A stretch of DNA of 64,000 nt, taken from NCBI RefSeq assembly GCF_963676685.1, contig NC_092348.1:37014001-37078000 (forward strand), written 5' to 3'. A program made the translations under genes and the position numbers. The stretch comes from Mytilus edulis (Eukaryota). Under the pieces are notes generated by a model. That model saw only the letters and a list, made by a program, of their open reading frames with translations. It did not search any database and was not told where the DNA came from. Numbering within the stretch: the stretch's first letter is position 1; each line of letters begins with the position of its first letter. Of this stretch, positions 1,038-29,834 are shown piece after piece.

Positions 1038-1928
1038 TTAACCACCATTGTGTCGTGGTGGCCTTGATGGGATGCACATTTCAGTCTTCGTTGGCAAAGG
1101 GCAGTAACTCTGAGTAGATGGCTTAGTTAATGTTAGTGTGGTACATCTTCCTGGGAGTGTGGTTGAAGTCATCATTTCAGTTTTACAAAGCTGCATTTCT
1201 TTTGATGCAACAAAGTAGTCCGTTTCTTGGTTGATACCTTTAACAGACTTACACTGGTGAAGCTTAAGTTGTCGGAGCCGACGTCCTGGCCGATGTACAT
1301 AATCTGTCATGTCATCCAGAAATCCCATTTCTCTGAAGAAAAGTTTAACATTATCAATAGACTTTTGAACTATTTGATTATGTTCATCTACGAGTTGTTG
1401 TACCTGTTGAAGTTTTAAATTAAAATCCCCTCCAATTAACAGCTCAACTCCAGAAATCCATCCTAGATATTGTGCCAACCATAAGTAACGGGACGCAAAC
1501 TTATACAGTTCCTGTGATGTTGTCTGCGTCAGCTCCCAATGCCAACTGATACAATGAAACTGTTTGACGATATGTTGAGTAGGTTTCGGAGCCAGGATGT
1601 TAACTAAAGGATACAACAATTTGCCTTGTGTGATCCCAGGAACCACTAAAGATGATACAAGCTCGTGAGAGTTTGGGGTTTGCAATTGCAATCTCTTTGT
1701 ATCGTATAAAAGTACTGTATCTTCATTATGAGCGACTTCGGCTTGACGATAATCAGTTAACACTGGTGATGACATATCAGGCTTGTCTCCCGGCAAAAAT
1801 AATAAATCGGGTTGATTTTGTCCGACGACATCGTTTAGATAAGACATTCGGTAATCCTGAAACTGCCTTCCCTTTCTTCCAGAAGCGTTCATGCTAATGA
1901 TGCTTAACCTGTCGGCTTCTCTTCCCAT
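1038..1928 (-). CDS. EEP/DNase I-like fold protein with C-terminal GG tail, paralogue 1 (296 aa)
   Basis: Open 296-aa ORF with EEP-type motifs in the expected order: IISMN (first strand Asn), PDLLFL, CISWH, LLIGGDFN, TDYFV. It aligns end to end by eye with three other ORFs in the window and ends RPPRHNGG*. Confidence 0.85.
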   Translation of the reverse strand: MGREADRLSIISMNASGRKGRQFQDYRMSYLNDVVGQNQPDLLFLPGDKPDMSSPVLTDYRQAEVAHNEDTVLLYDTKRLQLQTPNSHELVSSLVVPGITQGKLLYPLVNILAPKPTQHIVKQFHCISWHWELTQTTSQELYKFASRYLWLAQYLGWISGVELLIGGDFNLKLQQVQQLVDEHNQIVQKSIDNVKLFFREMGFLDDMTDYVHRPGRRLRQLKLHQCKSVKGINQETDYFVASKEMQLCKTEMMTSTTLPGRCTTLTLTKPSTQSYCPLPTKTEMCIPSRPPRHNGG

Positions 1929-4900
1929 GTTATATTTATGTAAGTATATAATACAATCGTTATTTTAGTAAGCAATTCTTTCAACATTTGGTAGACGTAT
2001 TACGTAGACAAAAGATTTAATTCAAGGGAAGTCAGTCATGAGCACAACCGATACTTACAGAACTTTCGGAGGGGGTTTTATGGATATATATACGGATTTT
2101 GACAATAATTCTTATTTTTTCGCATAAAACAAATAAGAAGTTTATATATAATTCATAAATCGTTTCCTGTTATCTTTAAAGCATAGAACGATGGTCATCT
2201 TCGCTGACTAATGGTTGTTCTTATTGAATTGTCAACCAACTGCTTATATATATTTATACACAAGATGATAATATAACTGTACACACAAAACCACTAATGT
2301 AGAAGCAAATCAAATCATGTTCAACGGGGAATAAGTTTGAAGTTTTCTTTTTTATTTGGATTTGCAATGTCGACTATTGAGTTTTTTGGCTTCTTTGTTT
2401 TTCAATTTTCTGTCCTAAGTTGGTTGGTATGTTTTGATTATCCACATTTTAAGTATTTGCCTTACTGGTTAATAACAGAAACAGTAAAACGTATTGCTTG
2501 CACGAAAATAATATCATTGGATTTTAATTCCTTGAAGTTGGTACCGCTTTGTTTGTGATATCAGATACCGATGATACTTTACACCTAGAAGCAAACGGCA
2601 AATTATATTTAATTCTTTATTTAACGAAAATAGTATAAAATAAAACAATAAACAATTTTTCCATAAATTCAATTTACAAATAGTAGAAATTTTACATTGA
2701 AGAATTAAAACAGAAGGCTTAGATTAATTAGGAAACTATGGAATTTTTATTAACAAAATCTAACTAAATTACTTACTGTTTGCTTCTATTCGTCCTTTTC
2801 AATATTTTCAAATTTGAATCACCGTTTGCTTTGCTCAAAATATACACTTAACTTGCAAAAACAAAGTGAAGAAAGTGTATCAATATCCTAAATGGTGTTT
2901 TTTTTTGCATTATATATAGATATTTGTTATTATTGAAGTGTGTAATGATTGGATAACAGTATAAATATAAATAGATCTTAGAAGGTATGATATGACCAAA
3001 TAAAAATTGTCATTACGACATGAACACGTGTAGTAGCATGACTCAAAGTACAATGCTTACGTAATTCTATTTTGGTTTTTGATGATGTGATTGGACTTTT
3101 TATCACCTTTTACGAATCAATGCAACTTATGTGTACATGTTTACCATACTAATTGTTAGATTTGAAAGATCCAAAAACGTTTTTATAAAAATACCGAATT
3201 CCTAGGTTAATTAAAAAACGGGGGAATTTCCATAAAAACTTGAAGATATCATAATTGAGAGTATGTAAGCAAACAAAACGAATAAAAAAAACTGTTATAA
3301 ACCTGAATTAGAACAGAAACTTCGAATGAGGACAAATAAGAAAAAAAAGTTTTTTAAGCAGGAAATTCATACAGTGTGTTTATTGCTAATTTAACTTTGC
3401 TACATAAGTGAATTATAAACAATAGTCAATAAAAATACTCCTTTTTTGTTCATATGGCATAGTGTCTGCATATTTTTACATGTCTGTCTTTCAAAATTTG
3501 ATATTAAAGCTTTCCAGATGAAGGTGAAATCGGAAAACCGCATCGGACGGACCAAATATCTAATCTTTACATTCATTTCGATAACTATCAAATCATTATT
3601 CTCAATACACATGTTACACTTTATATCTGTTCCTTCGTACATGTCCAGTCATTCATGATAAATCTTTATCCTTCAATGATGTTATTTAATTTATATCTAC
3701 TATAATTATGTTATTACTTTCTAAAGTCATGATCAAATTGCTTTTTCAAAGGAATTTTTATGCACATATATACATATAAACAAAGTCGATTGTTGTTGTC
3801 TGATCTTTGGTCGAGTTGTTATCTCTTTGACACATTACATATTTCTATTCTCAATTTTATATTAACAAAGTCGGTATATATAGTTGAATGCTATTTGTTT
3901 CTTATGATAAATTTTAGCATCAAGAAAAAGAGAGAATTCATAAAATTAGACCCCTCAAAATATGCATATCCTGCATGATGAATAGTAATTTAAGGTATCT
4001 TGAATAATCTGAAAATATTACTTTTATGTAAACCTAAGCTTAACTAGAAATGAATCACCAATCCTGAAACAATTACGAACAGTACGTCAGCCTACCAAAT
4101 GTACAATGCATATTAACGAAATATGTTTTATAACTGCTAAATCCTTCAAATATTAATCAAGTAAAAAAAAAGAACCTTTATAAAACAGTCTTTAGAGCTG
4201 AGGGCATTGCTTGTATATAAATATACATATGTGCATGTTCAACTGAGTTATTTGTGTTGTTGTGACTTTTGTTTATGTCCCAAGTATCATTTTTACTTAT
4301 ATGACAATAAAAAAAATATAACTTCTTAATAAAATTGTCAAATGAGTATTTCCGATCAGTAGCCTTGAATAGACTTTTGAATTCCGCGTAAATTATACAG
4401 AAATACCATTGAGAGAACGAAAGGCAAAATTTTCAATAAATCATCGTGTAATACATATTTATAGTTTGAAGATTAGATTAGTACCAATATTTAGAGAGGG
4501 TTAATCGAATAAAGGTAATGAAAGTGTATTAATGTTATTACGTGCAACTCTGCAAGATAACAACATATTAGATAACATATATGTTAGAAAGTTTCTAAAC
4601 GTAGTGAATACTGCATATGTATAGTACAAGTAAATTATACGTTTTTCACAATTTTTGTGCGATAAGATGGTCTTCAAATGTATATTTATGTATAGAAAAA
4701 AAAAACAGTTATTACGAAATTGCCCCCCAAAAAAACTCTATATTTTAAAGACTAATCTGTTGAAGTCATATATTACCTGTATTATCACTGGTGGTAAGCG
4801 GATGGTCGTAACTAAAAGTTACGACCATCCGGAGATGGGAGACAACTCTAGAGATAAGTTTTTCTTTTCCTATTTTCATGCAGTAAAATGTTCATTTGAG

Positions 4901-5270
4901 TCAAACCGCTTGTCCCGTATATACTATTCGGTGGTTCGGAGATATTGAAACCAAATTTGATGCATTAAAACATTCCTATTTTCGTAAAATAGTCATTCAA
5001 AAATTCGAGCATGATGGTCGTAACTAAAAAAACAAAAATGTTGAGGATGGTCGTAACGAAAATTTGTGATGGTCGTAACTCTGTTTTAAATAAGACCGAA
5101 TAAGGCAAGTCAAGAGTTTTTAACGTGTCTTTTATTGTATGCATATATATTATATGTTGTATTTCTGAAGATTTTTTTTAAATTTTTACATACAACGTAA
5201 AATAAAGCAATTTCAATCCGTGTAACACTTATCAATTAAAATTTTAAAAAAAGTTTTCAAATATTGGTTT

Positions 5271-6164
5271 CAGGGGTGTGAAAATGCTATGCCCGACTCG
5301 CCCGACTCGTACATTTGAACAACCGGACAAGTAATAATTTTTGTCGTGGTTGCCCGTGGACAAGTAAAAAAATATACAACATGTACAAGACAAAGTTCAA
5401 ATCCAACAAAAACATAAGATTAATTTCAAAACGTATAAAGATGTTTAATTTATGTAAAAGAAACCAATCTTCAGCAAGTAAAAACATCAATGTTCATGAC
5501 GATAAATATTACATGATACTGGAAATAGATCGATTAATTTACCAAAATAAATAAAAATAAGTATGCGAACCAGAGTCGCGTTACATAAACATTGCATTGG
5601 CTTTGTCCATTGACCCTGGATCGTCGATTAAGTTTTATCCATCATTTACCGGTTGTGTCATTTCTTTAAATTTTGTATCGAGATTCAGATTGACAAATAC
5701 TTAATAAAAAGCTGGGCAAGCAAGACAAAAAGCATCATGAGTCGAGTAGAAAACCTTAAATGCAAACGGAGGACACAGAGTATTTAAAAAAAAGAGAAAC
5801 GGAAGCTAGAATCATTGTCCTCAAATTTAGTATATTATGTACCTACTGGCTACAATTTTTATTCCAAAACTGCAGCAAAATTGTCCTTTACATGTCATTT
5901 CATTGGTTGGCTTCCTGTTAGGTTTCTGTCCCACTGATGTTAACCCATTTCCTACTTTCCTAATTTTTTACACATATAAACAAATGGATTTCATTCATTT
6001 GTGATGCACAAAAGTGCCAAGTAAGAATCATATATTAGCTAACAAGAAATACTTCAATATTTATTGGGATCATCAGGGCAAGTAAATTGTTTTCTGGACA
6101 AGTAAAATTTTTAGTTTTACTTGCCCAGGGACAAGTGCTCACAACAAATATTTCCACACCCCTG
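5271..6164. mobile_element. Non-autonomous DNA transposon (hAT-like termini), nested
   Basis: 15-bp TIR caggggtgtgaaaat / atttccacacccctg with one mismatch. Subterminal gg(a/g)caagt repeats at both ends. No clean TSD seen. Confidence 0.6.
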
Positions 6165-6886
6165 AGTTTGGGGGAATTTGATTAAAGTTTCAAATCGGTT
6201 TAAAATTCCAAATTTTTAAAATGTTTTGGACCGAACAAGGCAAGTCAAGAGTTTTAAACATGTCTTTTATTATATGAATATATTATATTATATATTGTGA
6301 AGTTGTTTTCACCAATGATAAAATCTAAAGGAAGTGAAGAGAGGGGTACATGTAAAGTGCGAAACGGAAGAAAATTGGAACAAATCGAACGAAACAATAC
6401 AAAATGAAATGACAGTCATATATATATATATACTGAAAATATAATGTATAAAACTAACCAGAGGCAAATAGTTAAATTAATGTATAAGCAATTAAATTCA
6501 TTAACAATGTAAATTTCTCAAAAGTGGAGAATTCATTTTAAAACAAAAAACACAGCCTTGGTTATGATAATTTTTAGTTAGAAATAAAAAGCATGAAATG
6601 TATCAAATAATTTTAATTACAAAATAAATGATTTTAAGGAAAGGCATTTTTAGTAAAATGGACATCACATGAAATAACAGTATCCTGGTGGTTTTTTTTT
6701 TCTTCTTTAGATTTTGCATCTTTGTTAAAGATAAACATTGTAAAAACTTTTTGAGGATGTACCTACTAGTTGATTTTTTTTTAAATCTACAATTTAAGAT
6801 TGATACATTAAGTCGAAAGAGCATTAGTAAGGAGTCAAAATAATCTAAAAGTTAATATTGATAGGTTATGAAGGTCGTTATCTAGA

Positions 6887-6930
6887 CTAGACCATTCCCG
6901 CGAATTCGCAGGTCCGTACCTGAGTTAAAG
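6887..6930 (-). mobile_element. Helitron 3' terminus, nested; 5' extent unresolved
   Basis: The minus strand reads ggacctgcgaattcgcgggaatggtCTAG|T: a GC hairpin followed by CTAG, resembling the 3' end at 23650. Confidence 0.55.
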
Positions 6931-7407
6931 AACACACGCTTTATTTTTAGCCTGGATTTTTAGAAGTCATATTGTTTTTTGGTGAAATCAAGCTGATAAT
7001 AAGGTGGACAGTTATGTCCATTACGAAGTCCATGAGTAGCGTGTAGCCATTCATACAATATAAACATATAACATACACATAATGTTCAATCTGCATACCG
7101 TGGGGTTTGTATGTGATAGTTGCCGCTGTACATTTAGTTCTACCGAAGTCTCTGACATATTATCCTGGTTACAAGCTTAAGCCTGGCTTCAAACTAGTAT
7201 TTTATTTTACTCTTAAAGTCAGCGCGTGTAGAAGTGTAAAATATATATATCAACAATATTCCTACTTTCGAGAGATTAATATAATTTTCATTGCAACACA
7301 ATGGATTCAGTTTTCATTCCGTACAAATACTTAGAACTAATATCAATGATATACCGCTATATATAATCGTTATGTAATCGATAAACAATAGACAGCACGT
7401 TAAAAAA

Positions 7408-7548
7408 TCCTGGGTTGAGTTCAATATCGTAGCGGCTACGTAGCTGCTATCAATATCTATGTAGCAACTAGTCTATAGCTACACATTCAATAGTCAAAAT
7501 CTACGTAGCACTATACGCAGCTGCTACGATATTGAACTCAACCCAGGA
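7408..7548. mobile_element. Palindromic MITE-like element (~140 bp)
   Basis: Inverted arms tcctgggttgagttcaatatcgtagc / gctacgatattgaactcaacccagga. Confidence 0.65.
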
Positions 7549-12416: not shown

Positions 12417-13304
12417 TTAGCCGCCGTTATGTCTTGGTGGCCTTGCTGGAATATGCATCTCTGTCTTGATTGGCGGAGGACGCTCGTGTTCAATTTTCTG
12501 TTTTATCACCGCCGATTGAGCGCATCTCATTGGAACATTTGATTCTGAAATTATATCAGTATTACCAAGTTGCATTTCTTTTGATGCAACGAAATACTCA
12601 GTTTGGTTGCTTCCATCTGTAGAGATGCACGGGTGTAATTTAAGCTGACGGAGGCGACGTCCTGGTCTATGAGTATTATCCGTCATACTATCATCATACC
12701 CCATTAATCTGAACATTGGCTTGACATTTTCAATTGTTCCCTGGACGAATTTGTTATGTGCTATCAAGAGGTCCTGTAATTTTTGGAGTGGCAAATTGAA
12801 ATCTCCTCCAATAAGAACTTCTACGCCATGTGTCCATGCCAGGTATTGCGCCAACCATAAGTAACTTGCAGCACGTTGTTCTAGTTCCTCAGATTCTGTT
12901 TGTGTGAGGCTATAATGCCAACTTATGATGTGGAACTGCTTGACAACATGTTGAGTTGGTTGAGGTGATAATATATTCATTAATGGGAAAATCAATTTGC
13001 CTAATTGAACACCAGGTACCTTTAGAGTTGGTATTAACTCAAACCAATTTTGTATTTCTAACTCCAATCGTTTGGAGTCGTACAGAAGGCCCGTCTCCGA
13101 ACTGAAAGCTAAATTTACAGGGCGGTAATCGTTAAGTTTGAATGAAGTCATATCTGAATTGTCACCTGGTAGCAATACCATATCGGGTTCATTCTGCCAG
13201 ATAACATCATTCAAATGAGACGTCCGTTCAGATTGACACTGCTCTCCATTTCTACCAGCAAGTTTCATGCTAATGATGTTTAGTCTATCTGTATGTTTCC
13301 CCAT
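12417..13304 (-). CDS. EEP/DNase I-like fold protein with C-terminal GG tail, paralogue 2 (295 aa, most divergent copy)
   Basis: The ORF track starts at 13334, but the ATG at 13304 (MGKHTDRL) aligns with MGREADRL/MGRDTDRL of the paralogues. Motifs: PDMVLLPGD, IISWH, VLIGGDFN, RPGRRLRQLKL, TEYFVASKEMQL, RPPRHNGG*. Confidence 0.85.
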   Translation of the reverse strand: MGKHTDRLNIISMKLAGRNGEQCQSERTSHLNDVIWQNEPDMVLLPGDNSDMTSFKLNDYRPVNLAFSSETGLLYDSKRLELEIQNWFELIPTLKVPGVQLGKLIFPLMNILSPQPTQHVVKQFHIISWHYSLTQTESEELEQRAASYLWLAQYLAWTHGVEVLIGGDFNLPLQKLQDLLIAHNKFVQGTIENVKPMFRLMGYDDSMTDNTHRPGRRLRQLKLHPCISTDGSNQTEYFVASKEMQLGNTDIISESNVPMRCAQSAVIKQKIEHERPPPIKTEMHIPARPPRHNGG

Positions 13305-16300
13305 ATTGCCTTTAAGTAAAATGGTTTTTTTCATAATTATTAATCATTTATACATAATCTCTAGATAGAATGTAACAATAAAACGTAATAAAAGTTATGT
13401 CCATTTCTATTAAACAGAACATTATCTCCATGGTACGCTCGTTCTGAATTGCAAGGATGTAAAGATTGCTTCAATATTCATACGAGTATTTATTTTTCTT
13501 TATGAAGTTTATGTTACTAGCTATTTCTTTCCTCTTTTTTTACATGTAGCATATACAATAGTAGATCCTTATTTTTTGTGTTAACACGGCGTAAAGACCC
13601 CTTATATATCACAGAAGAAATCGTATTATGAATGCTATCATTCAATCAAAAGCAATATCTATGATTATTGAAGAATTTTTATGTCCATAAACTCGCCCAT
13701 AAATGATTTTATCAAACTGATTTTCAGAAAATGTAATACAATTCTATAAATAGATTTGTGAATCGATTATGTAACACTACGAATTGAAAAGAAATCATGT
13801 GTTATATGATAAAATGGAATTTGTTAATACTAAAGGTAGAGTAGCTTTGTTTTAAACAAATGTATATGTGTTGGTAAAAGAATAATACATTTTTCAAAAC
13901 CTCTTCATACTTTACGATCCACATTCACCTTTAGGATATATGTAATGATAAATAAGAAAATTTTTAATAAAAATTGGTCGCAGAATGATAACGATATATA
14001 GTCTTCCTAATACAAAATGTACCATTGGTTATTTGCTACAAAATCTAAATGTCCGTAACAAAACGTCAATATTGTTCAATTTGGTGAATTATCATGCATT
14101 GACTTCCCTCGTTGTATTTTTACTTATAATTATATATCAGTAAACTTTTAATGATATTTTAAATGGAAAAAATATTTAAAGGAAAGGAATAAATAGACTG
14201 CAATTAGGTTATGTCCATAATCACGTATAACTCCCTGAAATAATTTAGATATTTCAAGACTAAATTATTCGAGCACTTATTAATTTCTTAATATTATTAT
14301 TGATTGATATATTTCATTTAACTTTTAGCATTTTGAAATATTTAGAATATTGTACTTTTGAATAAAATAACTCATATTGTAATTTTCAAAATGACATATG
14401 ATTATTTACTTAATCTCGTGTGCTGTTCAAAACTCCTGAGTAAATCCTCGTTTTGTTGAAAAAGCTTCCAAGTTCGTTGCGAAATCTACGATGAGTCTAT
14501 AATAAAGAATCATTTAATTACTTATTTTCGATAATGTGATAGAACAGGGATAGTAACAACAATCACGTAGGTCCAACATCTGATCATAAACAATTTGAAA
14601 GACGATTGAAAGGTTAAATACTAATATTTGTTAGTAAGTAAAACCCTCTTTAATGTATAATGATGTTAGTCAATGTTCCAATATTCTTCGGTTGTGATTT
14701 ATTGTATACATACAAACAAATGGAAATTGTTCTTGACTCACAACCGACACCTATCCATAACAATTTTCCGCCACTGCAGCTTTTTCAACAGAATAATGTA
14801 TTAATACTATAAAAGACGCACCAATTGTATAAAGTAGTGTTCTTATTTAAGTTTCTTATACATTGTTCTTACATAAAATAATAGCGGTTCATTTGAAAAT
14901 ATTTCATGAAGTGCCTGGCATTTTTTTCAGTTAATAAATCTATGGTAAACTGACATGATTTAAGCTTTAGAAAAAAGGTCCAAATACACCAGCACCATTT
15001 TTACGATTTTGGCAACAGTATCCACAGTAGCAGGGGTCAAGAAAGATTTTTGAAATTATATGACATGCCTGATAAAAAAAAATTCACTCTAATGCACTAT
15101 ATGATATGATATTATATTATTGTTGGAGGCCGTATGATGAGACTTATAGTTGATCACATCCACGAAGATAGTTGTCTCATGAGAAATCATACCGTACCCA
15201 GTCTGTTTCTTTAACATTTACACAACATATGTTTAGGTATTTCCTTCCGTCGCCTATTAAAACGGTTTAAGAATTAGGAATGTTCTGAAGCTAAAATTGA
15301 GTTTTTTTTTTCACTAGAAGCACTTGCATTGTGTTCATTCTGTTTGAATATATACAAATATCTGTTAGACATTAGATAAGAAAGTAATGAATTAGACAAA
15401 CTTATAATTCTTACCTGTACATGTATGTCAGCTTATCGAATGTAGCATTGCCTATAAGAAATATTCTACGCCGCAAATGGTTTTAATTACAATATCAGAA
15501 AAGTTCCAACTATAAATAGCTTGTTTTCTAAAAATACGTAGCGGATTTTTCGTTTCCTTATATAGTTGTAGATAACATACAATGTTCGGGAAAATACCCA
15601 AAAAAAAATAGAAGGAAAAGAGTGAAATAAATATATTACTTTTAATAGTACGTATTTTTGGCATTTCATAGACAAATTTTAAATCTAAAACTGGTATTGC
15701 CTACATTTGACATGTGAAAATAAAATAATATAATGCCTTAACGATTGTCTGTAAAGTCATGCAAACAGTGACAACCGAAAGTAATTTTTTAGTATTTCAA
15801 GGATCAACTTTACAAATAAGAGTTACAAAAAGAAATATATGGTTATCTGAAAAAATGTTAATAGTCTTATTAAGCCCCATTGTTAATAACATAACAGTTA
15901 CCAAATCAGGTATATAAAAGGCTCTGAATATATCAAGCGTACAATCACGGACCAACACAGTCGGAACAAAAGACAAACATCGACGTAATAAAAACATTAG
16001 TAAATATATAGGTATATGTTTGTATGCTCATATAAAACTTGTTTCTCGAAGGCTTGCACAACAATAGCTTAGTTGACGAGCAAACGTAACGTTACATCAT
16101 AATCGAAACCAGGATAATGTTTAAATTAAACTATTTATATCAATGCAAAAGATTGTGATTACCGGGATATTTTGTTCATATTAGATTGGGAAGGTTTAAT
16201 AAATGATGATATGTGCCTAAATACATTGTAGTTCTATTTTGGTATGATTTTAGGTTTAGCTTTGTGCCATGGTATTTTTGTTTTGTATTTGTTTTTGTTT

Positions 16301-18129: not shown

Positions 18130-18193
18130 ATTGTTTTGTTTTGTTTTTGTTTGTCTTTTGTTTGTTTGTTTGTTTGTTTGTTTGTTTGTTGTT
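18130..18193. repeat. (TTTG)n microsatellite
   Basis: Directly visible. Confidence 0.9.
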
Positions 18194-18914: not shown

Positions 18915-19805
18915 TTATCCACCGTTGTGTCTTGGTGGCCTTGATGGAATGCACATTTCTGTCTTCGTTGGCGCAGGACAGTAACTCTGAGTAGCTGGTC
19001 TGGTTACTGTTAGTGTTGCACATCTTCCGGGAAGTGTCGAGGCTGTCATCATTTCAGTCTTACATAGCTGCATTTCTTTTGATGCAACAAAGTAGTCCGT
19101 TTCTTGGTTAATACCTGCAACCGACTTACACTTATGCAGTTTAAGTTGTCGGAGTCGACGTCCAGGACGATTTACATTGTCAGTCATTTCATCCATGTAG
19201 CCCATTTCCCTAAAAAATGGTTTGATATCTTCAACTTGCTTTTGGACAAGTGTATTATGTTCACTCAGGAGCTTTTGTATCTGTTGAATTGGCAAATTAA
19301 AGTCGCCTCCAATCAGGATTTCCACTCCAGAAATCCAACCAAGATATTGCGCCAACCATAAGTAACGAAACGCAAACTGGTAGAGTTCCTGTGTTGTTGT
19401 TTGAGTCAGCTCCCAATGCCAGCTTATACAATGAAACTGCTTAACAACATGTTGTGTAGGTTTAGGAGCCAGGATGTCAACTAAGGGATACATCAGTTTG
19501 CCTTGTGCGATGCCAGGAACCACTAAAGATGGTATCAGATCGTACCAATTTGGTGTTTGCAGTTGTAGTCTCTTAGTATCGTACAAAAGAACAGTCTCGT
19601 GGTTGTGATGGACTTGTGTTTGACGATAATCTTTTAAAACAGGTGACGACATATCAGGATCGTCTCCCGGCAAAAACAATATATCGGGTTCGTTGTCTCC
19701 GATTATATCGTCAAGATAAGACTTTCGATAGTTCTGGTATTGTCTTCCCTTTCTCCCAGAAGCATTCATACTAACGATTGTAAGTCTGTCTGTGTCTCGT
19801 CCCAT
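18915..19805 (-). CDS. EEP/DNase I-like fold protein with C-terminal GG tail, paralogue 3 (296 aa)
   Basis: Same length and motifs as paralogue 1. A candidate splice acceptor (ttacag) lies 9 nt upstream of the ATG. Confidence 0.87.
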   Translation of the reverse strand: MGRDTDRLTIVSMNASGRKGRQYQNYRKSYLDDIIGDNEPDILFLPGDDPDMSSPVLKDYRQTQVHHNHETVLLYDTKRLQLQTPNWYDLIPSLVVPGIAQGKLMYPLVDILAPKPTQHVVKQFHCISWHWELTQTTTQELYQFAFRYLWLAQYLGWISGVEILIGGDFNLPIQQIQKLLSEHNTLVQKQVEDIKPFFREMGYMDEMTDNVNRPGRRLRQLKLHKCKSVAGINQETDYFVASKEMQLCKTEMMTASTLPGRCATLTVTRPATQSYCPAPTKTEMCIPSRPPRHNGG

Positions 19806-20860
19806 ATTTAATTTCTGTAATTAATTTGAAAATATCATGTAAATGACAACTTTAATGTAAATTTGATACTTGATGCATAGATCAACTAAAATCATGAAAA
19901 TATACACCAAGAAAAAGTTTGTGTCTGTTAACGCGTCCATAAATTGATAGAATTAATTTTCAGAAAATATACACTTATCTAAAAATAAACCTGAGATCGA
20001 TTACATAACTTTAAACACAAAATAGTTAATAGATATGTTGCGCATGTATCTGGATGTATTTACAATAGGCTGTCGGTATGGTTAAAATACTTTTTGATGT
20101 TATTCAATTTAATTTTTGTTTTCTTCTCCACGCACCAGGGCTCTCTCCTTTGAGAACTCATACGATTCCTGCTGGTTTCGTCTTTTATCTTTATTTTTGT
20201 CTGTTTACTCATGTTACTCTTGTTAATGAAATAATGATATTTTAACATTGGTTAACTGTACGAATGTATGTTGGTTTATTTTTTACATATGAGACATGAA
20301 ATGAGATAATAACAATTTACTACTTACTTTTCTGACCTTCTTTATATTGTTGTTCTTTTAATTCCTTTATTTGATTTGAAAGTTACGCAATTTCTGAAAA
20401 AAAGAAAATTCTTTATTTTACAAAGTTTTTACATGAATATATTTTTTTATTTTCTTGCAGTCCATTTTTTATCGATTTCTTGTTTGTGAACACACGTACG
20501 ATTTAACTTTTACTTTCACTATCATCAAAACGATTGTTTGAAAACTACTGTCATAAATGCACATATTTCATATATTTGTAAGAAAATACAACGTAAGAAT
20601 ATATAGTTTAGTAAGGCATTATGTTCTTATAAAGTGATATGATTTGTTACCAATTCTATAAATAGATATCACTATTTAGTAATAAATATTATTGCATAGC
20701 AATATAATATTTCCCACAGAAAGAAACCAAAGGTTAGCGTGCAATAAATTATATTATTGCACTAGTGCAATAAATCTTCAAAAATTCATGACGTCATCAA
20801 CGACAAAATCTTAGCTTAAACCAATTTTTACTTTCAAATATTATATTGCTATACAATAAA

Positions 20861-20984
20861 AGGGTTTTGCATGAATATTGGGAAATATTGTCCCTCGTAG
20901 AACATATATATATTGCACTCGCAAGCTCGTGCAATATAAAATTCTACTCGGGACAATATTCCCCAATATTCATGCAATAACCCT
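20861..20984. repeat. Long hairpin palindrome, part of a likely non-autonomous element (~20690-20987)
   Basis: agggttttgcatgaatattgggaaatattgtccc ... gggacaatattccccaatattcatgcaataaccct, with inner arms tatattgcac/gtgcaatata. Confidence 0.7.
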
Positions 20985-22893
20985 ATATCATAAAATTTAC
21001 ATTACAAAACGAATATAAGAATATGCTCACAAACATGCAACCAAGTGCAACGATTACGTAATGCTTTTTGTTTAACATGTCTAATTATGTTAATAAAATG
21101 CTGGTTTCATTATTTAAAAAAAAAAGTCGAAATCTTATAGAAAGATACACATTTGTTACACTTTTTTATCGTTGACTTTATTTTTATCATTTCTTGTATG
21201 CAGTGATATACTATTCCTTTTTTAATCATTTATTATCAATATTTCTATAACTTGTATATTTTGTGTTTTTGATAATCAACACATTTTATAGTAAAGTATT
21301 TTGTTTTATATGTTTGTAATACATTCTGAATCATTGTTACTTTGCATCGAAAAATTATTACAAGACCAAAGAAATATCTTTTTATACTATTTGAACTAGA
21401 TACTATTAACAAACGTTGCATGGAATTTTACTCAATCTATATACTTTTAGCTCAGACAGTAACATGAGTAAAGATACTAGTAATGTAAAATTTGAAACAC
21501 TAACCTGTAGTTCTGTCGTCGAATGCACAACTGCAATACTTAATAATGTGCGCAGTTATTAAATGTAATAACTGAAAACTTTCAGATGAATTTAGAATTC
21601 GATCATGAGCCTGAAATAGATTTGGGATTTTCCACATAATTATTTTATATAAAAATAGCTTTCGAGTTGATAAAACTCAAAACATCAATATACCAAATCA
21701 TTTACGATGTGATAATAATTTATAGATATGTGGATTTCGTATGTGCATTACAGTCAATTAGCGCTTAAACTGTTCCGGTAAAATTACATGCAATTAGCAT
21801 TCAACTATTAAGCATTCAGCGTTCCTTATGAAGATAAATCTACACAATCACTTTAGAAGCATGAGCTAATAACGTGGTGTTAAAAAAATTTGTACGAACT
21901 GATCGATGTAATTATGATTGATCCTTTGGTAGGGTTTATATTCAATAAAGTTAAAACTATTAGTACAGATTCGTCAAAAAAAATAATAATTTAATATTGA
22001 AATAAAAATATTTTTTTTATTAAACTTGTAATAGATAGAGGATCATAAAGGCAACAGTAGTATACAGCTGTTCGAAATTCATAAATCGATTGCGACAAAA
22101 AACAAATCCGGGTTACAAACTAAAATTGAGGAAAACAAATCATATATAGAACGTTTTATTAGTGTATTTAGTTTTCACCATCTTTATTGTAAAATGTAGT
22201 TAGATTTTGAAATTGAATGCATACAATGTGTCTTTATTAGTGTCCGTGTTGCATTTGTTTCAACGTTTACACTTGTTTGGAAGTTAAACACGACCTTTCC
22301 CTGATTTGAATTTTAATCATAAAAAAGTAAGCATACCATGTAGGTTATGCACGTCATGTATTTAAACATTACTGTCTTTGTTATATATAATTCATTCAAT
22401 TTTTTGGCACATATTTATAATACGTGCATGCCTCACAGACTTTTCAAAAACTTGATGAAAGTGAAAGTGAAAGTTAAATCGAGAGTTAACAAACAGTGCA
22501 TAAGTTGACATCATTTTGAATAGGATTCATACAATTATAATTAAATTCAAAACAGTAAATATGAATATAAGCATGATAGGAGGGAGTGTGTATGATTTTC
22601 ATATTACGAAGACATACTTTATCAGCATGATCAATCACTTTATTTTAGGTCTGAAGCTGGAATGTCCGAAACTGCTAGTTGTTCTTTGTTAACGTATTTA
22701 TCATTGTCATTCTGCTTTGCTTTTTTCCGTTAACCATACATCGGAATTTTAAACTGTTTTATTGCGCAAACTGCTGTGTGTAATGTTTTTTTTCTAAATT
22801 GGTTTCTGAGGTAGAACTAGATATCTCACAAAACCTGCTTAATCCCATCGCATTTTATACCTGTCCCAAGTAGGGAACCTCTGACCTTAAGTA

Positions 22894-23650
22894 TCTATGA
22901 TACTAAAATTACGAGGTCCAATTTGTCAGCCGTCATCACGTAAAAACGACGAATCAAAGAATTCAACTTTATATATAACTAATATAGTACTAAGGTGTAG
23001 ATTAAAAATGACACCACTCCAGGCCCTTTTGTTTTCCACGTAATTAACATTGCCAATAATTAAGAAGTTCCGGGTCGAGTCCGATACCGATACCAATAGT
23101 ATATTCACCTGTTACCTATTACCTTATCTGTACGTTCCGCATCTGACAGGCGCACCAACAAACGGTGTATTCAGGATTAATATGCTATATACACGGGTCA
23201 TAATCACAGGGTTGACACTACTAAATTGTCGATTAATTACCTATTGTAGTATTTTAATCAGTAAGACTTTCTAAGATAACAATTCGAATACTAAAAATCT
23301 GGACTAAAAATAAGGCGTATAGGTACAGTTTTCAATTTGTTAGCGGGCATGACGTAAAACAGCGAATCAAAGACTTCAACTTTATCTATAACTAATATAG
23401 GACAATGCTGTTGATTAAAAAATACTCCATTCCAGGACCTTTTCTTTCCAAATAATTAATTTTACCAATAATTGATAAGTTCCAGTTCGACGGATTCAAA
23501 CAGAAAGATTTGAAAGCAGAGAAAACTGTGTATCTTATAACCGGTTTGACTTTATAAGATGACAATACTAATACTAAAATAAGGCTTACGCATAGTTAGT
23601 TATATACTTTAATTCAGTCACGGACCCGCGATATCACGGGTGTGTTCTAG
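22894..23650 (+). mobile_element. Non-autonomous Helitron
   Basis: A|TCTATGATACTAAAA 5' end. 3' hairpin cccgcgatatcacggg followed by CTAG|T. Inserted between A and T with no TSD. Internal direct duplication (~22900-23080 vs ~23290-23490). Confidence 0.8.
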
Positions 23651-24068
23651 TATTTCTAATTACTTTACTTTCTAATGGAATCAAAAGCATTCACATCATT
23701 CAAAGTTAAATCACAAAGTACTGAAATCCAAAGGAAATTTAAAACGGAAAGTCTCTAATCAAATGGCAAAGTAAAAAGCTCAAACATATTAAACGAAATG
23801 ATAACACCTGTTATATTTCTGATTTGGTATAGGCATTATCTAATGCAGAAAATGATGGATTAAACCGAGTGTTAAAGCTAGCTAAACCTTTCACTTGTAT
23901 GACATTCGCATCAAATTCCATTATATTGACAACAATGTGTGATAGAAACACACAGACAAAATAGGTAAAAATGTCAATATAGGGATAAAGCAGTCGACAA
24001 AAATACCCAAAATATAATATCTTTGAAGAATTTTAAATAGTTTTTTTTCTAAAATAATCAAAAGTGTC

Positions 24069-24446
24069 AAAGCGATTCGGACGCAAGAAATTATTAAACG
24101 TCATGTTTTCAATTTTATACTCAACTAGGTCGATACCTCTGATGGTGGACTATCAGTCCCCGAGGGTATCATCATCTCAGTAGTCAGTACTTCGGTACTG
24201 ACATGATTTAACAAACGTTACTAAATTTTGAAATTTTTAAGAAACTAAGGTTTCAACTCCCTTAGGCAAAGTTGGCTTTATTTGAATTTGGCTATTTATT
24301 TTAGGTATTTTTGACATATAGCTCTTCGACGGTTTCGGTACTTATACATCTGCGGATTTCAAATGTTTGCTTTGAGCGTTCCTGATGAAGGTAAATCCAG
24401 AAAAGCGCTTCGGATGCAAGAAATTATTAAACGTGTTGTTTTCAAT
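24069..24446 (+). mobile_element. Retrozyme-like unit (333-nt period) bounded by hammerhead-ribozyme repeats
   Basis: Terminal direct repeat aaagcg(a/c)ttcgga(c/t)gcaagaaattattaaacgt at 24069 and 24402. A full hammerhead-like motif sits at the 3' copy. Internal hairpins are present. Confidence 0.65.
24376..24417 (+). ncRNA. Type I minimal hammerhead ribozyme-like motif
   Basis: Stem I gcgttc/ggatgc; core CTGATGA (24382-24388); short stem II (gg/cc, atypical A.A closing pair); GAAA (24400-24403); palindromic stem III agcgct; UC cleavage site ending at 24411. Confidence 0.6.
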
Positions 24447-25489
24447 TCTGTACACATACGCTGTTTCTCATGAACAATGTTGTATTTGCAATGTATCATT
24501 TATTTCCGCTTGCATTATAAATCAAACTACTAGTTACATAGTGGGTTAGTGACCTGATATAAATACGGGGTCAGTAAATTCCATATGAAGTGGAAGCCCT
24601 ACATCCCTACTAACCTAATATGGAATATACACGGTCTCCATGCGGACGCTATTAACCAATCATATAGGCCCAAGCCCATAATTAATGACCCCGCTTTTCG
24701 TTGTTCACGTATATAGTTCTCTTTAATTATAGTGGGTTTTTTTTCTTTCCCTTTCTCATACATTTCTTAGTTTTTCGTAGATGGAAATGAAAGAAGAGAG
24801 CTTAAATAAACTTTTGGATGTTTTATTTTTACTGATTTTGATGAGGAAAGAGTGATTAGGCCAAGTGCAAAAAGATAATATTTACACTTTTCGAAATATC
24901 TCTTGACTTGCCTTTAAGGCTATAGATGTGTATTGGTCAAATTTGTATGATGTAAACATGCAATGTGTCTGAAAATTGCATATATTTTGGGACTTGTACT
25001 GTACATTACACTCACAAAAAATTAGACAAAAATAATAGGCAAATTTTCATCAAAATTTAAAAACGGGATCAAAACTGTATCGTTTGCCCTTAAATTCCTT
25101 ATATTCTTATATCTTTTTTACCACATACGTTCATCATTATTATCATTACTCTGTCTCTATTTATTTTTCTTTTCTGCATTATTGATCTAGTTTATAATTA
25201 TGTTGCGATGTCATATTTCGACTTACGATAAAAAGATCTGTGCAGAATTACATAATCTTTAAATTATTTCAGAGCAGTTGAAACTGACTTGTATCGAATC
25301 AGTTTAATGCAAAGTCAAAAACCTAAACGGAAAATTAGATAGGAAATGAATGCATAATGTGGGGTTTCCGGGATGTTTATCTGTAAATCTTTAGTAGTTT
25401 ATTTTTATTTATTCTGACCAGCATCTACTGAGCAAAATAAAATTGTTAAATTTGATGTATGCCCTTTTGTGCTTCTTTCTTATATTTTT

Positions 25490-25825
25490 TTTGTTTTTAT
25501 AGTGGTTAAGATGATAACACAATGTTGACTGTTGTACCCCTATATTTGACATTTTTATCGATTGTGTCAGTTTGTTTTGTTCATGCAACTTTGTCAATAT
25601 ACTGGAATTTGATGCGACTGTCATACAAGTAAGAGGTTAAACTAGCTTTAATACCAGGTTCAATACACCATTTTCTACCTGAAAAAAATGCCTCCACCAA
25701 GTCAGGAATAATATGACAGTGGTTATCCATTCGTTTGATGTGTTTGAGCTTTTGGTTTTGCTATTTAATGAAGGAATTTCCTTTCTGAATTTTTTTCTGA
25801 GTTCAGTTTTTTTGTTATTTTACCT
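25490..25825 (+). repeat. Dispersed SINE-like/retroelement tail repeat; other copies at 23705-24000 (-), 25935-26030 (+), 58430-58652 (+)
   Basis: Shared core gaatttgatgcgactgtcatacaagt..ccaagtcaggaat..ccattcgtttgatgtgtttgagctttt. Confidence 0.75.
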
Positions 25826-26299
25826 TCTTGTGTTATGAAATACTTTTTGAATTCACATTTTACACATTTTTTAAAGTAAATATTGCACAACAAAAGTTAT
25901 CTTAGTTCTGCAGGTTAAAAAAAAAAGAGAAAGTATGATGTGTTTGAGCTTTTAATTTTGCAATTTGATTAGGGACTTTCCTTTTTTACTATTTCTCGGC
26001 ATTCAGTATTTTAGTGATTTTACTTTTTACATACATATTGATCTGTATTTAAATTGCATAAATGAACACAAACACTTGTGTTGTTTGGCTTTATAGTTTA
26101 AGCTTAATTCAAAATAGTTCATGTTATGAAATCAACTGTTTTGTAAAATTGAATTTTTAAATGTAAAATAAGACGAGACAATTGGCATAAATGATAGACT
26201 ATTTCAAATTGATTTATTCTGCCCAACTTTTATAAAGCGTATATTAATAATTAACACTGCCTTTTCCTGGATCTTGATACCTTTATCTTCAACAGGAAG

Positions 26300-26960
26300 C
26301 TGATTTCCAAAATGTGAGATAAAAGTGACGATTTGTGTTACTTATCGATTTTTAAATGATGACGTTTCCTTGTCAGCTTCTTATAATGTTTATATATCTT
26401 AACTTGTTCGATTTGCACATGACTGTGTGTATAACAACGTATTTGATTTTAGATAAAGAAATCTCTGTATAACTGAAACATTATTTCAACAGGGTTTTTC
26501 GATATCACAAACTAGTCAAAATATAACTAAATGTAATCATCGGTACAAGGACACCATTTGTAAAATAAATCAGCAAGCAGACATCTTTTACGTCTAGGTA
26601 TTTCGCATCCGAGTTTATTTGGCAATATTCTTTACAAAGCACAAACCTGTCGGCATTCACCTTAAACAAAACAAAACAAACCATAAAACAGACTTATTTA
26701 GAAGGGATATAGTTGCTATACTGTTGTCAGGTCAATAAAGTTAGCATATTGTGGTATTACTATTGATTCACCCATAAGATCTTTTCAACGGAAATAAACT
26801 CATCTATTCTAAAACCAGTTATTGGCATGATACGGGAGGGATTGTGCTTGATTTTTCTATTATGACGACAAAATCTTTCAGTCAGTTTAGTTGAAGTGTA
26901 GAGCCGGCATGTCAGTAACTGCTTGTAATCACTTGTTTATTCATCTATCCTTAGTTTCCT
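26300..26960 (+). mobile_element. Decayed Penelope-like RT fragment (family B)
   Basis: Degenerate translation DVSLSASYNVYIS*LVRFA resembles the family A motif. Its 3' part matches 17630-17790 on the minus strand. Confidence 0.6.
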
Positions 26961-28943
26961 TTGTACCCATAAATTGTAGCTTTTAAATTTGTACTGTAAT
27001 TTTGATTCAAACAAATCCAATTTAAACTCGAAAATGAAATCTTGTGTGACAATGCTGTTTTTCCTGTGATACAACCATTGACAAATTTCATCAAGTTGTG
27101 CATTTCCATGTTCCTTTTTAAAATTTTTTATCACAAAACAAGTGTTGTAAATCACACAAATGGAGTTGAATCTAGCTTGTACTAAGTTTTATCTGTAGAC
27201 ATTTCTTTGCATGTGGTATTATCTTTGTCCTTAAGTTTCGTTGTTGATAGCTGTGTCATTGATTATCATCCCAAATCCTCGGATTTTTATATTGTGATGG
27301 ACTTTTTTTCAACTGCAAATCCTAGTTGTAATATTGATGAAGAATACTAATGATAACAGAAAACAATGAAATATGTTTTATTTACAATGTAAGATGGTAC
27401 AAAAATAATAGTTACAATATTGTTACACATATATCTAAAGCTTTTGACCTTTTGGTTCTAATATGAAGAAATGATTAACAAAGACACATGTAAAACAGCC
27501 ACTTATATTTTAGAAATGAGTCAAATGCTTTGTTACATATATAAGCTTTATCTGTCTTTCCATACATCAACCAATACATCAAATATTTGTTTACTTGTAG
27601 TTTACTTAATAAAGTAGCAAATACAGATAATGGATATGTTTTCAAAGGAGATTCATTTTCGAAAATTCATCTCATCAACAAAACGAAACTTGTCAGTAAA
27701 TATTCACAGCTTACATCAATATATATATAACCTTTGGTCTTAACCTTTCGCTCCAGGATTGACGGGTACATAGTACTCATTCACTTAAAGAGGAAACAAT
27801 TATCAAATGTAGGACTTTGAACTTATTTATTGATATGTATTTTGCATGCAGATTTTTCTTCTCTTTTTTATTTCAAACACTTATTTTTGCATCAATGCAT
27901 ATCAACTAATACCATGATGCTAACATTGTTGTTATCATTTATACAAAGGATATTAATAAATCATGTAAATAGCAGTGACTCATAACAATGATACCATTTT
28001 TTCGGTCATTATACTAATAATTATGAATTTTATTTTTCAACAAAATTTAGGATTGCTTAATTGCATTAAAATAAACATATGTCATAGAAATAGGAATAAA
28101 AAGTTTAGATTACCTCTAAATTATCTGCTATTAATCTAAATTGATTTTAAGGGTTTATATAAAGTACTTATGAAGATGTACATACAAATGTTTTATAAAA
28201 ATGTAAAACATCATACCTGTCTACAAGTATATGACACTTTGAAATGTTTTTTTCGAAATATAATAAAGAAATTGACCATATAAAACAAATTACAAAATGT
28301 TGTTTTTTAAACCATAGAATTGAATTTCACAGCGTAATATGAACATGTGCAATAGTACAGTCTATGAACACAAATTGTTAACTATCAAAGTATCAATTAA
28401 ATGTAACAGTTCATAAACTTAAAGTAGATATTTTGTTTAAACAAAAATGTATTGGAATGTTAATTAATACTCAAACTTTGTGCTTTGCATCCTAAACAAT
28501 ATTAAGGTTTGAAATGTGATTCAGTGGTATTGAAAACAACACCTGAATATTAACAAATGAATTATACTTTCATCTATTGTAAAGATAACAGTTCTCGCGA
28601 GTTGTTTATTTTTTTGAAAAATTGTTCAATCAATTTAAAATTGTTCTTTAAGAAAAATCAAAACTGGGAACTCGAAAATAGAAAATAAAACCTTGCAGAC
28701 AATGAAGGTATGTTTTTCATCTTCAACAGGTTTAAGCCAATGTAATGCAACAACTGTCCCATATACATACGAGCGATCATCATTTAAAAACTGAGGGTGA
28801 AAAAACTTAATATTGATTTTTTTTCTATTTTTTTTTTTAATATATTCTTTTAAGAAAACCCAAAAAAGAATACTCACGACATCAACATGATAAATGATAT
28901 AGATTGGATACAAAATATGACCAAAAGCTATGTAGAATTTAGT

Positions 28944-29834
28944 TTAACCACCGTTGTGTCTTGGTGGCCGTGCAGGAATACACATCTCTGTCTTCACTGG
29001 CGCAGGACAGTAACTATGTTCAGCGGGCCTGGTAACTGTTAGATTCGTACATCTGCCTGGAAGTGCCGAAGTCGTCATCATTTCGGTATTACATAGCTGC
29101 ATTTCCTTTGAGGCAACAAAGTAGTCGGTTTCCTGGTTAACTCCTGCAGAAGATTTACACTTCTGGAGTTTAAGCTGTCTTAGCCGTCGTCCTGGTCGAT
29201 GAATATTATCCGTCATTTCATCCATGTATCCCATTTCCCTGAAAAATGGTTTGACATCTTCAAATGCCTTTTGGACGAGTGTATTATGTTCATCTAGGAG
29301 CTGTTGTATCTCTTGGATAGGTAAATTAAAATCACCTCCAATCAGGATCTCCACTCCAGAAGTCCAGCCAAGATACTGAGCCAACCATAGGTAACGAAAT
29401 GCAAACTTATAACGTTCTTCTGATGTTGTTTGAGTAAGCTCCCAGTGCCAACTAACACAATGGAACTGTTTGACGATATGTTGTGTCGGTTTAGGAGCCA
29501 GGACATCGAACAAGGGGTACAATAGTTGTCCTTTTGTGATGCCAGGTACCATCAAAGATGGAATCAGATCGTACCCTTTTGGGTTTTTCAATTTCAGCCT
29601 CTTCGTATCGTACAAAAGTACAGTCTCGTGCTTGTAAGCGACTTGCTCTTGACGATAATCAGTAAGGACTGGTGAAGACATGTCTGGCTCGTCTCCCGGC
29701 AAAAACAATATATCTGGCTCATCGTGTCCGATAATTTCGTTCAGGTAAGAATGCCGATAGTTTTGATACTGTTTTCCATTCCTACCAGAAGCATTCATGC
29801 TGATTATCCTTAATCTATCTGTATCTCTTCCCAT
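28944..29834 (-). CDS. EEP/DNase I-like fold protein with C-terminal GG tail, paralogue 4 (296 aa)
   Basis: Same length and motifs. A candidate acceptor (ccctttcag) lies a few nt upstream of the ATG. Confidence 0.87.
   Translation of the reverse strand: MGRDTDRLRIISMNASGRNGKQYQNYRHSYLNEIIGHDEPDILFLPGDEPDMSSPVLTDYRQEQVAYKHETVLLYDTKRLKLKNPKGYDLIPSLMVPGITKGQLLYPLFDVLAPKPTQHIVKQFHCVSWHWELTQTTSEERYKFAFRYLWLAQYLGWTSGVEILIGGDFNLPIQEIQQLLDEHNTLVQKAFEDVKPFFREMGYMDEMTDNIHRPGRRLRQLKLQKCKSSAGVNQETDYFVASKEMQLCNTEMMTTSALPGRCTNLTVTRPAEHSYCPAPVKTEMCIPARPPRHNGG

What the first reader, a model, noticed from the sequence alone, without database searches (positions are those of the whole stretch)
1038..29834. 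Tandem array of four uncharacterised EEP/DNase I-like genes: candidate new protein family
Seen: four same-strand ORFs of 295-296 aa with uninterrupted coding sequence, spread over 29 kb. All are intact while their flanks have diverged and filled with transposons, and many visible differences are synonymous, which suggests purifying selection. Known: the order of the motifs first-strand Asn, PD-hydrophobic strand, xxH, GGDFN and (D/E)YFV is the signature of the EEP superfamily (DNase I, APE1/ExoIII, L1 endonuclease, CdtB, CCR4, sphingomyelinase). Inference: they match no named animal EEP gene I recognise. They have no signal peptide and no RT domain attached, so they look like a lineage-expanded stand-alone intracellular family. 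An immune or nucleic-acid-handling role, or an origin by domestication or horizontal transfer, is possible but unproven.
Basis: partly seen in the sequence, partly recalled or inferred. Interest (0 to 1): 0.8.

Follow-up and report, generated by a model that had tools for sequence, protein, structure and literature searches.

The report
Bivalve nuclease-like proteins with di-glycine tail
These mussel genes belong to an uncharacterised family found in mussels, oysters and clams that has the shape of a DNase I-type enzyme, has lost key catalytic residues, and always ends in two free glycines, a tag that cells normally avoid because it marks proteins for destruction.

Summary
Confirmed: four intact genes on the minus strand (295-296 aa), part of a six-copy cluster (one more intact and one frameshifted copy upstream), under purifying selection (dN/dS 0.13-0.16 among the three closest copies). 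Two copies have spliced contigs. The model has the EEP fold (Z 17.4 to TDP2). Of the six EEP catalytic motifs, the Mg-binding Glu is absent in 51 of 51 aligned homologues (QE became LPGD), and Asp-His is mostly Tyr-x-Pro. Clam members have also lost DxN. The best-kept segment is a C-terminal P-x-R-P-P-[KR]-H-x-G-G: 49 of 51 end in GG, against 0 of 67 in a catalytically intact sister family. The family spans mussels, oysters, clams and a freshwater mussel, and its tree follows host clades, so it is an old bivalve family, not a recent transfer or a retroelement endonuclease. Best reading (0.4): a non-catalytic EEP binder whose free di-Gly end is a KLHDC2-type degron; a KLHDC2-like gene keeping the GG-binding arginines is in this genome. 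Ligand, partner and immune role are not shown.

The parts
1038..1928 (-). g1, intact 296-aa EEP pseudo-enzyme gene ending in GG. The splice acceptor 9 nt before the ATG in g3 (TTACAG) reads TTACAT here.
   Evidence: expression not tested (outside the stretch laid)
12417..13304 (-). g2, intact 295-aa copy of the divergent subgroup (Asn14 replaced by Lys, Asp237 by Glu), ending in GG
   Evidence: covered by contigs in run X1
13310..14409 (-). 5'-UTR intron of g2 (GT..AG, 1100 nt)
   Evidence: joint 13308/14409 CT..AC in one contig of X1; ends read
15410..15518 (-). conserved non-coding segment ending in a CAG|GTAAG donor, shared with the two upstream copies; probable first exon of g2 (inferred)
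   Evidence: 77% identity over 112 nt to the upstream copy
18915..19805 (-). g3, intact 296-aa copy, the protein that was folded (P0001)
   Evidence: covered in X1 at mean word depth about 400-520
19815..20327 (-). 5'-UTR intron of g3 (GT..AG, 513 nt)
   Evidence: joint 19814/20328 CT..AC in X1 contigs; ends read
20328..20393 (-). 5' non-coding exon of g3. It has an in-frame stop before the ATG, so the MGRD start is the real one. One X1 contig extends it to 20714.
28944..29834 (-). g4, intact 296-aa copy with an acceptor-like TTTCAG 5 nt before the ATG
   Evidence: depth 0 in all four runs laid
18915..18947 (-). C-terminal tail of g3, P-S-R-P-P-R-H-N-G-G-stop. The motif is present in all four copies, with differing Gly codons.

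Best explanation
The genes encode cytosolic, single-domain EEP-fold pseudo-enzymes of an old bivalve family. Shown: the fold, loss of the Mg-binding Glu and of the Asp-His motif, an insertion of about 35 residues between motifs iv and v that the model folds as helices and that carries a basic RPxRRLRQLK patch, an invariant C-terminal PxRPP[KR]HxGG, purifying selection, and splicing of two copies. Inferred: (1) the family arose from the catalytically intact 'SWHG' EEP family and gave up Mg-dependent hydrolysis; (2) the remaining pocket and basic helix bind, rather than cut, a phosphorylated ligand (nucleic acid or nucleotide most likely), as EEPD1 does; (3) the free di-Gly end is read by a GG-binding Kelch receptor (CRL2-KLHDC2 or CRL5-KLHDC1), which keeps the protein short-lived or removes it when the tail is not masked by a partner, as for MIC19. 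Tandem copies arose separately in mussels and oysters and are expressed conditionally.
For: Fold: pLDDT 83, pTM 0.83; the top 38 VIA rows are EEP-fold proteins, best TDP2 Z 17.4, rmsd 3.6, 215 aligned, and the next fold scores 7.2. Column mapping to the intact sister family: hhalign probability 99.3, E 1e-20, QES opposite PGD. Motif counts in 51 aligned sequences: Gly 49, Leu 1, Tyr 1 at the Glu position; Y-x-P in 30, H-x-P in 3, other in 18 at motif vi; in the 18 sequences below 60% identity, motif iv Asp in 7, Glu in 9, Asn in 2, and His(iii) in 7. The sister family keeps QE in 56, GDFN in 64 and a DH-type motif in 58 of 67. Tail: GG end in 49 of 51 and in 59 of 62 hits that reach motif v, the three exceptions lacking the tail region; 0 of 67 in the sister family. 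Residues 294-296 have pLDDT under 50, consistent with a free end. PMC8013793: di-Gly ends are scarce in eukaryotic proteomes (about 50 human proteins), over 95% of GG-ending random peptides were degraded, and MIC19 keeps a conserved GG degron. Two exons at G000:C3 near 4.88 Mb match KLHDC2 best (E 9e-21, 2e-13) with Arg at the 236 and 241 positions, and a KLHDC3-like exon is present too (E 5e-36).
Against: Mussel and oyster members keep Asn(i), His(iii), DxN(iv) and mostly Asp(v). PMC12988330 section 32 calls DxN the critical pair and says the other motifs only improve efficiency, so residual or altered activity is possible. An invariant Asp48 lies next to the lost Glu. KLHDC2 holds residues upstream of GG by backbone contacts (PMC11568203), so a degron alone does not explain the near-invariant P, R, P, P and His. 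Only 5 of 10 GG-ending human proteins tested were KLHDC2 substrates. Residues 281-290 are modelled with confidence (mean pLDDT 82), leaving about 6-7 free residues for a pocket that takes seven, which is borderline. Overall charge is near neutral (33 K+R, 31 D+E). No ligand, partner or half-life was measured. The MIC19 parallel is weak at the N-terminus: Gly2 in 43 of 51, but Asp at position 6 in 37.
Confidence: 0.4

Rival explanations
1. Atypical active phosphoesterase. In mussels and oysters the retained Asn14, His130, Asp168, Asn170 and Asp237, with Asp48 as a shifted metal ligand and Tyr or the tail His293 in place of His(vi), still hydrolyse a phosphoester (nucleotide, sugar phosphate, or a DNA/RNA end).
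For: Four of six motifs are intact in g1, g3 and g4. Asp48 is kept in 48 of 51 and His293 in 46 of 51. DxN is the critical pair per PMC12988330.
Against: Glu(ii) coordinates the required Mg in L1-EN, APE1 and DNase I (PMC8565326 passages). Clam members lose His(iii) and DxN yet keep LPGD and the tail, and the g0-like copies have GNFN. The tail follows the last strand, which in this fold runs away from the active-site edge (recalled topology), and 291-296 has mean pLDDT 48.
Confidence: 0.2
2. Pseudo-enzyme scaffold whose tail is a specific ligand for a dedicated partner (a peptide-binding domain, or a groove in its own oligomer) rather than a degron. The whole motif, including His and the terminal carboxylate, is read side chain by side chain.
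For: Ten-residue conservation beyond what KLHDC2 needs. Oyster copies are joined in gene models to vWA-MIB/HERC2 genes, and MIB/HERC2 is a peptide-binding domain of E3 ligases (recalled).
Against: No partner was identified. The MIB/HERC2 neighbour is not seen near the mussel array: no tblastn hit in 164 kb, and none of 6 genome matches is on C5.
Confidence: 0.22
3. Inducible innate-immune factor whose GG tail mimics a ubiquitin-like C-terminus: it is either conjugated to targets through the last Gly, or acts as bait or inhibitor for viral deubiquitinases.
For: Free R/K-H-x-G-G end like that of ubiquitin-like proteins. Tandem expansion with one dead copy. Contigs of g2 and g3 in X1, but mean depth 0-0.15 over the coding bins in three raw RNA runs of 7-9 million reads. 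Two IRF-like GAAAGT repeats within 2.7 kb upstream of g3.
Against: E1 enzymes recognise the ubiquitin fold, which is absent (established knowledge). The IRF-like pattern was chosen after it was seen and is not found upstream of the other copies. No expression data under infection were found. The tissue of each run is unknown. dN/dS shows no sign of an arms race.
Confidence: 0.1
4. Domesticated retroelement endonuclease or a recently transferred bacterial or viral EEP gene.
For: Uninterrupted coding sequence. The nearest Atlas clusters are Bacillota EEPs at 0.95, but share only 152-156 of 256 features. Bacteroides EEPs tie with TDP2 in the fold searches.
Against: The tree groups mussels with oysters, clams together and Sinanodonta apart. 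Motif iii is His, whereas L1-EN has Tyr115. No reverse transcriptase is attached. No relative in viral contigs or PHROGs. GC3 of 0.36-0.40 is unremarkable for this AT-rich window. An ancient transfer into the ancestor of the sister family is not excluded.
Confidence: 0.08

Closest known systems
Unnamed bivalve 'SWHG' EEP family (P0083 at G000:C12, P0097 Potamilus, P0171 Mytilus; Pfam PF03372)
   Same: Closest relative by profile (probability 99.3); same fold; single-ORF genes, some in tandem.
   Different: Keeps all six motifs, has a motif iv-v spacer of 20-45 aa instead of 66-83, and never ends in GG (0 of 67). It is uncharacterised itself.
TDP2 and bacterial EEPs (4fpv, 3g6s, 3mpr, 3l1w)
   Same: Best structural matches, Z 16.2-17.4, 13-15% identity; His-type motif iii.
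   Different: They carry QE and DH; no N-terminal UBA domain here; the top rows are tied, so no subfamily assignment follows.
EEPD1 (EEP pseudo-nuclease, PMC12988330)
   Same: EEP domain kept without nuclease activity and used for binding; Z 14.3 to 9yxy.
   Different: EEPD1 lost Asn(iv) but keeps Glu(ii) and His(vi), has two (HhH)2 domains and is a dimer; this family lost Glu(ii) and His(vi) and has no HhH domain.
MIC19 and other full-length KLHDC2 substrates (PMC8013793)
   Same: Conserved C-terminal di-Gly on a non-ubiquitin fold; often Gly at position 2.
   Different: MIC19 is myristoylated and mitochondrial and was shown to be a substrate; nothing of this is shown here, and position 6 is mostly Asp.
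Pseudomonas Crc and Cimex nitrophorin
   Same: EEP folds used without catalysis (recalled); Z 13.4 and 10.1.
   Different: No sequence relationship was found; precedents only.

Membership tests
EEP superfamily (fold) | four-layer alpha/beta sandwich | tested here: met
   AlphaFold pLDDT 83; VIA Z 17.4, rmsd 3.6, 215 aligned to TDP2; Foldseek E 2e-8
EEP superfamily (fold) | Pfam PF03372 above the gathering score | tested here: not met
   g3 15.7 bits against a cut-off of 24.5; 17 of 51 members match at E<=0.1, best 6.4e-5
Active EEP hydrolase | motif i Asn | tested here: met
   48 of 51; Lys in g2
Active EEP hydrolase | motif ii QE (Mg-binding Glu) | tested here: not met
   0 of 51 have Glu in that column; LPGD instead
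Active EEP hydrolase | motif iii His/Tyr | tested here: met
   His130 in all four window copies and 40 of 51, but 7 of 18 non-redundant members
Active EEP hydrolase | motif iv DxN | tested here: met
   met in the four window copies; Asp in only 7 of 18 non-redundant members and lost in the clam members
Active EEP hydrolase | motif v Asp | tested here: met
   g1, g3, g4 Asp, g2 Glu; 32 of 51
Active EEP hydrolase | motif vi DH before the last strand | tested here: not met
   Y-x-P 30, H-x-P 3, other 18 of 51; one member has N-H-x-P; the segment before it (256-272) is low-confidence in the model
Active EEP hydrolase | phosphoester hydrolysis | not testable with these tools
   needs an assay
Non-LTR retroelement APE endonuclease | fused to reverse transcriptase, Tyr at motif iii | tested here: not met
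   stand-alone ORFs with their own stop; His at motif iii; no long RT fusion among 39 hits
EEPD1 | two (HhH)2 domains plus EEP | tested here: not met
   the EEP domain spans residues 5-286 of 296
KLHDC2 di-Gly C-degron substrate | free C-terminal Gly-Gly | tested here: met
   49 of 51; GG followed by TAA in all four copies
KLHDC2 di-Gly C-degron substrate | about seven accessible terminal residues | tested here: inconclusive
   291-296 mean pLDDT 48, 281-290 mean 82
KLHDC2 di-Gly C-degron substrate | receptor present in the organism | tested here: met
   two exons best matching KLHDC2, with Arg at 236 and 241; KLHDC1 was not told apart and the whole gene was not assembled
KLHDC2 di-Gly C-degron substrate | receptor-dependent degradation | not testable with these tools
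   needs a stability assay
Ubiquitin-like modifier | beta-grasp fold before the GG | tested here: not met
   the whole chain is accounted for by the EEP fold

The most novel reading that the evidence does not exclude
The family is a bivalve-specific, inducible protein modifier or decoy: a dead EEP domain that binds foreign nucleic acid or a nucleotide signal and uses a ubiquitin-like K/R-H-x-G-G end either to be conjugated to targets or to trap viral deubiquitinases. This would be an ISG15-like function on a non-ubiquitin fold.
Probability: 0.08. Interest if true: 0.88.

Novelty: new variant of a known kind. Interest (0 to 1): 0.5.

Why it matters
Eukaryotic proteomes avoid C-terminal di-Gly (PMC8013793), and few natural full-length substrates of that pathway are known. 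A family that has kept the motif in mussels, oysters, clams and freshwater mussels (a split of over 400 million years, recalled) while losing its catalytic residues offers a clean test of what a conserved GG end does outside ubiquitin-like proteins. It is also a new EEP pseudo-enzyme with an intact sister family as a control, in farmed animals whose lineage-specific genes are poorly annotated. UniRef labels some members 'endonuclease/exonuclease/phosphatase domain-containing', which hides the loss of the active site.

Tried and rejected
Homodimer prediction gave no answer (score 0.00, alignment not used); it is not used as evidence.

PHROGs gave nothing for 5 proteins; NCBIfam gave only sub-threshold EEP hits for 2 sister proteins. 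Sequence search of the PDB with the family profile gave no significant hit (best E 0.19; the best named hits are EEP enzymes). Viral contigs: no relative of the family; the 2 weak hits for the sister family (24%, E 3e-4) look like a generic viral EEP. The prokaryote genome collection was not scanned, so prokaryotic relatives were tested only through the protein searches. The metagenome scan gave 1 locus, with no IRF-like repeat seen by eye in the 1.18 kb upstream.

No run holding the gene is on record as RNA; X1 is a guess, supported here by spliced joints.

Literature: 0 papers for six LOC identifiers; none of the listed titles describes the family; no hit in the supplements of four oyster papers (5 of 16 files of PMC8917759 not searched); supplements of two OsHV-1 papers were not available and may hold expression data. 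Earlier findings of this scan: none.

An IRF-controlled promoter was considered and left as a weak lead (post-hoc pattern, not shared by other copies). N-myristoylation was judged unlikely from Asp at position 6; no predictor was run. Longer forms: an N-terminal extension from the exon at 20328-20393 was rejected (in-frame stop); other N-extended database models and the oyster fusions to MIB/HERC2 domains are probably gene-model joins but were not tested.
Full report
Observation. The four ORFs are present on the minus strand at 1038-1928, 12417-13304, 18915-19805 and 28944-29834. Their similarity stops close to the coding region. A search of the genome found the cluster to have six members: these four, an intact 284-aa gene 3.7 kb before the window and a frameshifted copy 38 kb before it; the only other match was a distant EEP gene on another contig, and a clam query found the same six places. 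Pairwise dN/dS is 0.126-0.158 among g1, g3 and g4, with bootstrap upper limits of at most 0.23; pairs of g2 or the upstream gene with these are saturated, and g2 against the upstream gene gives 0.41. The spacers carry high-copy non-coding repeats. The named homologues in the 90% cluster of g3 are all Mytilus.

Expression. Contigs of run X1 (RNA is a guess by the tool) cover g2 and g3 and join across GT..AG introns at 13310-14409 and 19815-20327, which shows spliced transcripts with 5' non-coding exons. g4 has depth 0 there, and three raw RNA runs from another species label (7-9 million reads read each) give mean depth 0-0.15 over the coding bins. Expression therefore looks conditional, but the tissues are unknown and the three runs come from one study. 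g1 was outside the stretch laid; its acceptor position reads CAT instead of CAG.

Fold. AlphaFold on a 51-sequence alignment gave pLDDT 83 and pTM 0.83. The top 38 rows of the wide structural search are EEP-fold proteins (TDP2 Z 17.4, rmsd 3.6, 215 aligned; Bacteroides EEPs Z 16.8-16.9; next fold 7.2), and Foldseek agrees. Pfam PF03372 is only sub-threshold. No subfamily can be assigned, since the top rows are tied.

Active site. PMC12988330 (section 32 read) lists six motifs: N, QE, H, DxN, D, DH. A catalytically intact sister family found here aligns with probability 99.3 and sets QES against PGD. In the 51 aligned members no Glu remains at motif ii (Gly 49), and motif vi reads Y-x-P in 30, H-x-P in 3 and other in 18. 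Mussel and oyster members keep N, H, DxN and mostly D. Among the 18 members below 60% identity, His(iii) is kept in 7 and Asp(iv) in 7, the clam members having Glu. The Glu is the Mg ligand in L1-EN, APE1 and DNase I (PMC8565326, passages). Against a fully dead site, the EEPD1 paper treats DxN as the critical pair, and Asp48 beside the lost Glu is kept in 48 of 51. The family also has a motif iv-v spacer of 66-83 residues against 20-45 in the sister family, modelled as helices 173-200 and 205-219 with a basic RPxRRLRQLK stretch.

The tail. The C-terminal P-x-R-P-P-[KR]-H-x-G-G is better kept than most catalytic motifs: GG ends 49 of 51 aligned members and 59 of 62 hits that reach motif v (the three others lack the tail region), against 0 of 67 sister proteins. 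The Gly codons differ among the four copies, so the constraint is on the protein. The last three residues are low-confidence in the model. Di-Gly ends are scarce in eukaryotic proteomes and are the KLHDC2/KLHDC1 degron; MIC19 is a precedent for a conserved one (PMC8013793, passages and section 9 part 1; PMC11568203 and PMC7458402, passages). Of 16 Kelch loci fetched from 81 matches, one has two exons that match KLHDC2 best and keep Arg at the 236 and 241 positions, and another matches KLHDC3. The degron reading has limits: KLHDC2 does not need specific upstream side chains, only 5 of 10 GG-ending human proteins were substrates, and the free part of the tail may be barely long enough.

Range and origin. 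Named homologues come from Mytilus, Ostrea, Magallana, Saccostrea, Mercenaria, Mactra, Dreissena and Sinanodonta; many hits are unnamed, and no named hit outside bivalves appeared except one transcriptome record identical to an oyster protein. HMMER over 1.84 billion representatives gave 39 hits, only one longer than 336 aa. A tree of 37 family and 20 sister sequences (chosen from the hits, not all of them) separates the two at 100/100 and groups mussels with oysters, clams together and Sinanodonta apart, with separate expansions in mussels and oysters (midpoint root). This fits vertical descent in bivalves. His at motif iii and the lack of a reverse transcriptase argue against a retroelement origin. 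An ancient transfer into the sister family's ancestor remains open (Atlas neighbours are bacterial but with low feature overlap).

Mechanism and verdict. The best reading is a non-catalytic EEP binder whose free di-Gly end couples it to a GG-reading E3 receptor (0.4). Rivals are a dedicated tail-binding partner (0.22), an atypical active enzyme (0.2), a ubiquitin-mimicking immune factor (0.1) and a domesticated or transferred gene (0.08). The immune idea rests only on tandem expansion, conditional expression and two post-hoc IRF-like sites near g3. I found no description of the family in the searches or in the supplements; most subscription papers are not searched. It works like EEPD1 in principle (EEP fold without catalysis) but is not a member of that family, nor of any active EEP subfamily tested. 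Novelty: new variant of a known kind; interest 0.5.

Noticed in passing
window 20499-20517 (-) and 22463-22481 (+): A 19-base IRF-like element (GAAAGT repeat plus a shared tail) occurs exactly twice in the 1.37-Gb genome, inverted and 1.9 kb apart, upstream of g3; the second has three GAAAGT units. The pattern was chosen after it was seen.
   Followed up: partly
G000:C12:66.67-66.71 Mb, C12:9.35 Mb, C4:78.80 Mb, C2:68.79 Mb (L020-L026): An uncharacterised sister EEP family with intact catalytic motifs, tandem on C12. One member is a double-domain ORF with a long 12-residue repeat insert; the C2 member has separately lost His(iii) and DH.
   Followed up: partly
P0103, P0117, P0105 (oyster gene models): Oyster copies are joined in some gene models to vWA-MIB/HERC2 genes, with the join inside the terminal Gly codons. 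The link was not found near the mussel array.
   Followed up: partly
window 1938-1940 (upstream of g1): The acceptor used by g3 (CAG, 9 nt before the ATG) reads CAT in g1, so g1 may be mis-spliced or silent in this haplotype.
   Followed up: no
window 27423-27671 and 27206-27259: X1 has a contig at 27423-27671 between g3 and g4, and one database model of g3 starts at 27259; possibly a distant first exon or another transcript.
   Followed up: no
window 37874-39028 (-), 53490-54650 (+), 59623-60795 (+), fragments at 49678-50405 and 57801-58040: Intronless rhodopsin-family GPCR genes, two intact paralogues plus fragments of further copies.
   Followed up: no
window 41877-43269 and 44544-44913: A 1.4-kb TC-rich simple repeat and a 64-base tandem repeat of 5.6 copies.
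   Followed up: no
G000:C5 about 36980930-36982000 (L012): Reverse-transcriptase-like open frames between the two upstream copies (identified by eye).
   Followed up: no
P0115: A protein in the same 90% cluster as oyster members is filed under a Mikrocytos transcriptome, most likely host carry-over.
   Followed up: no
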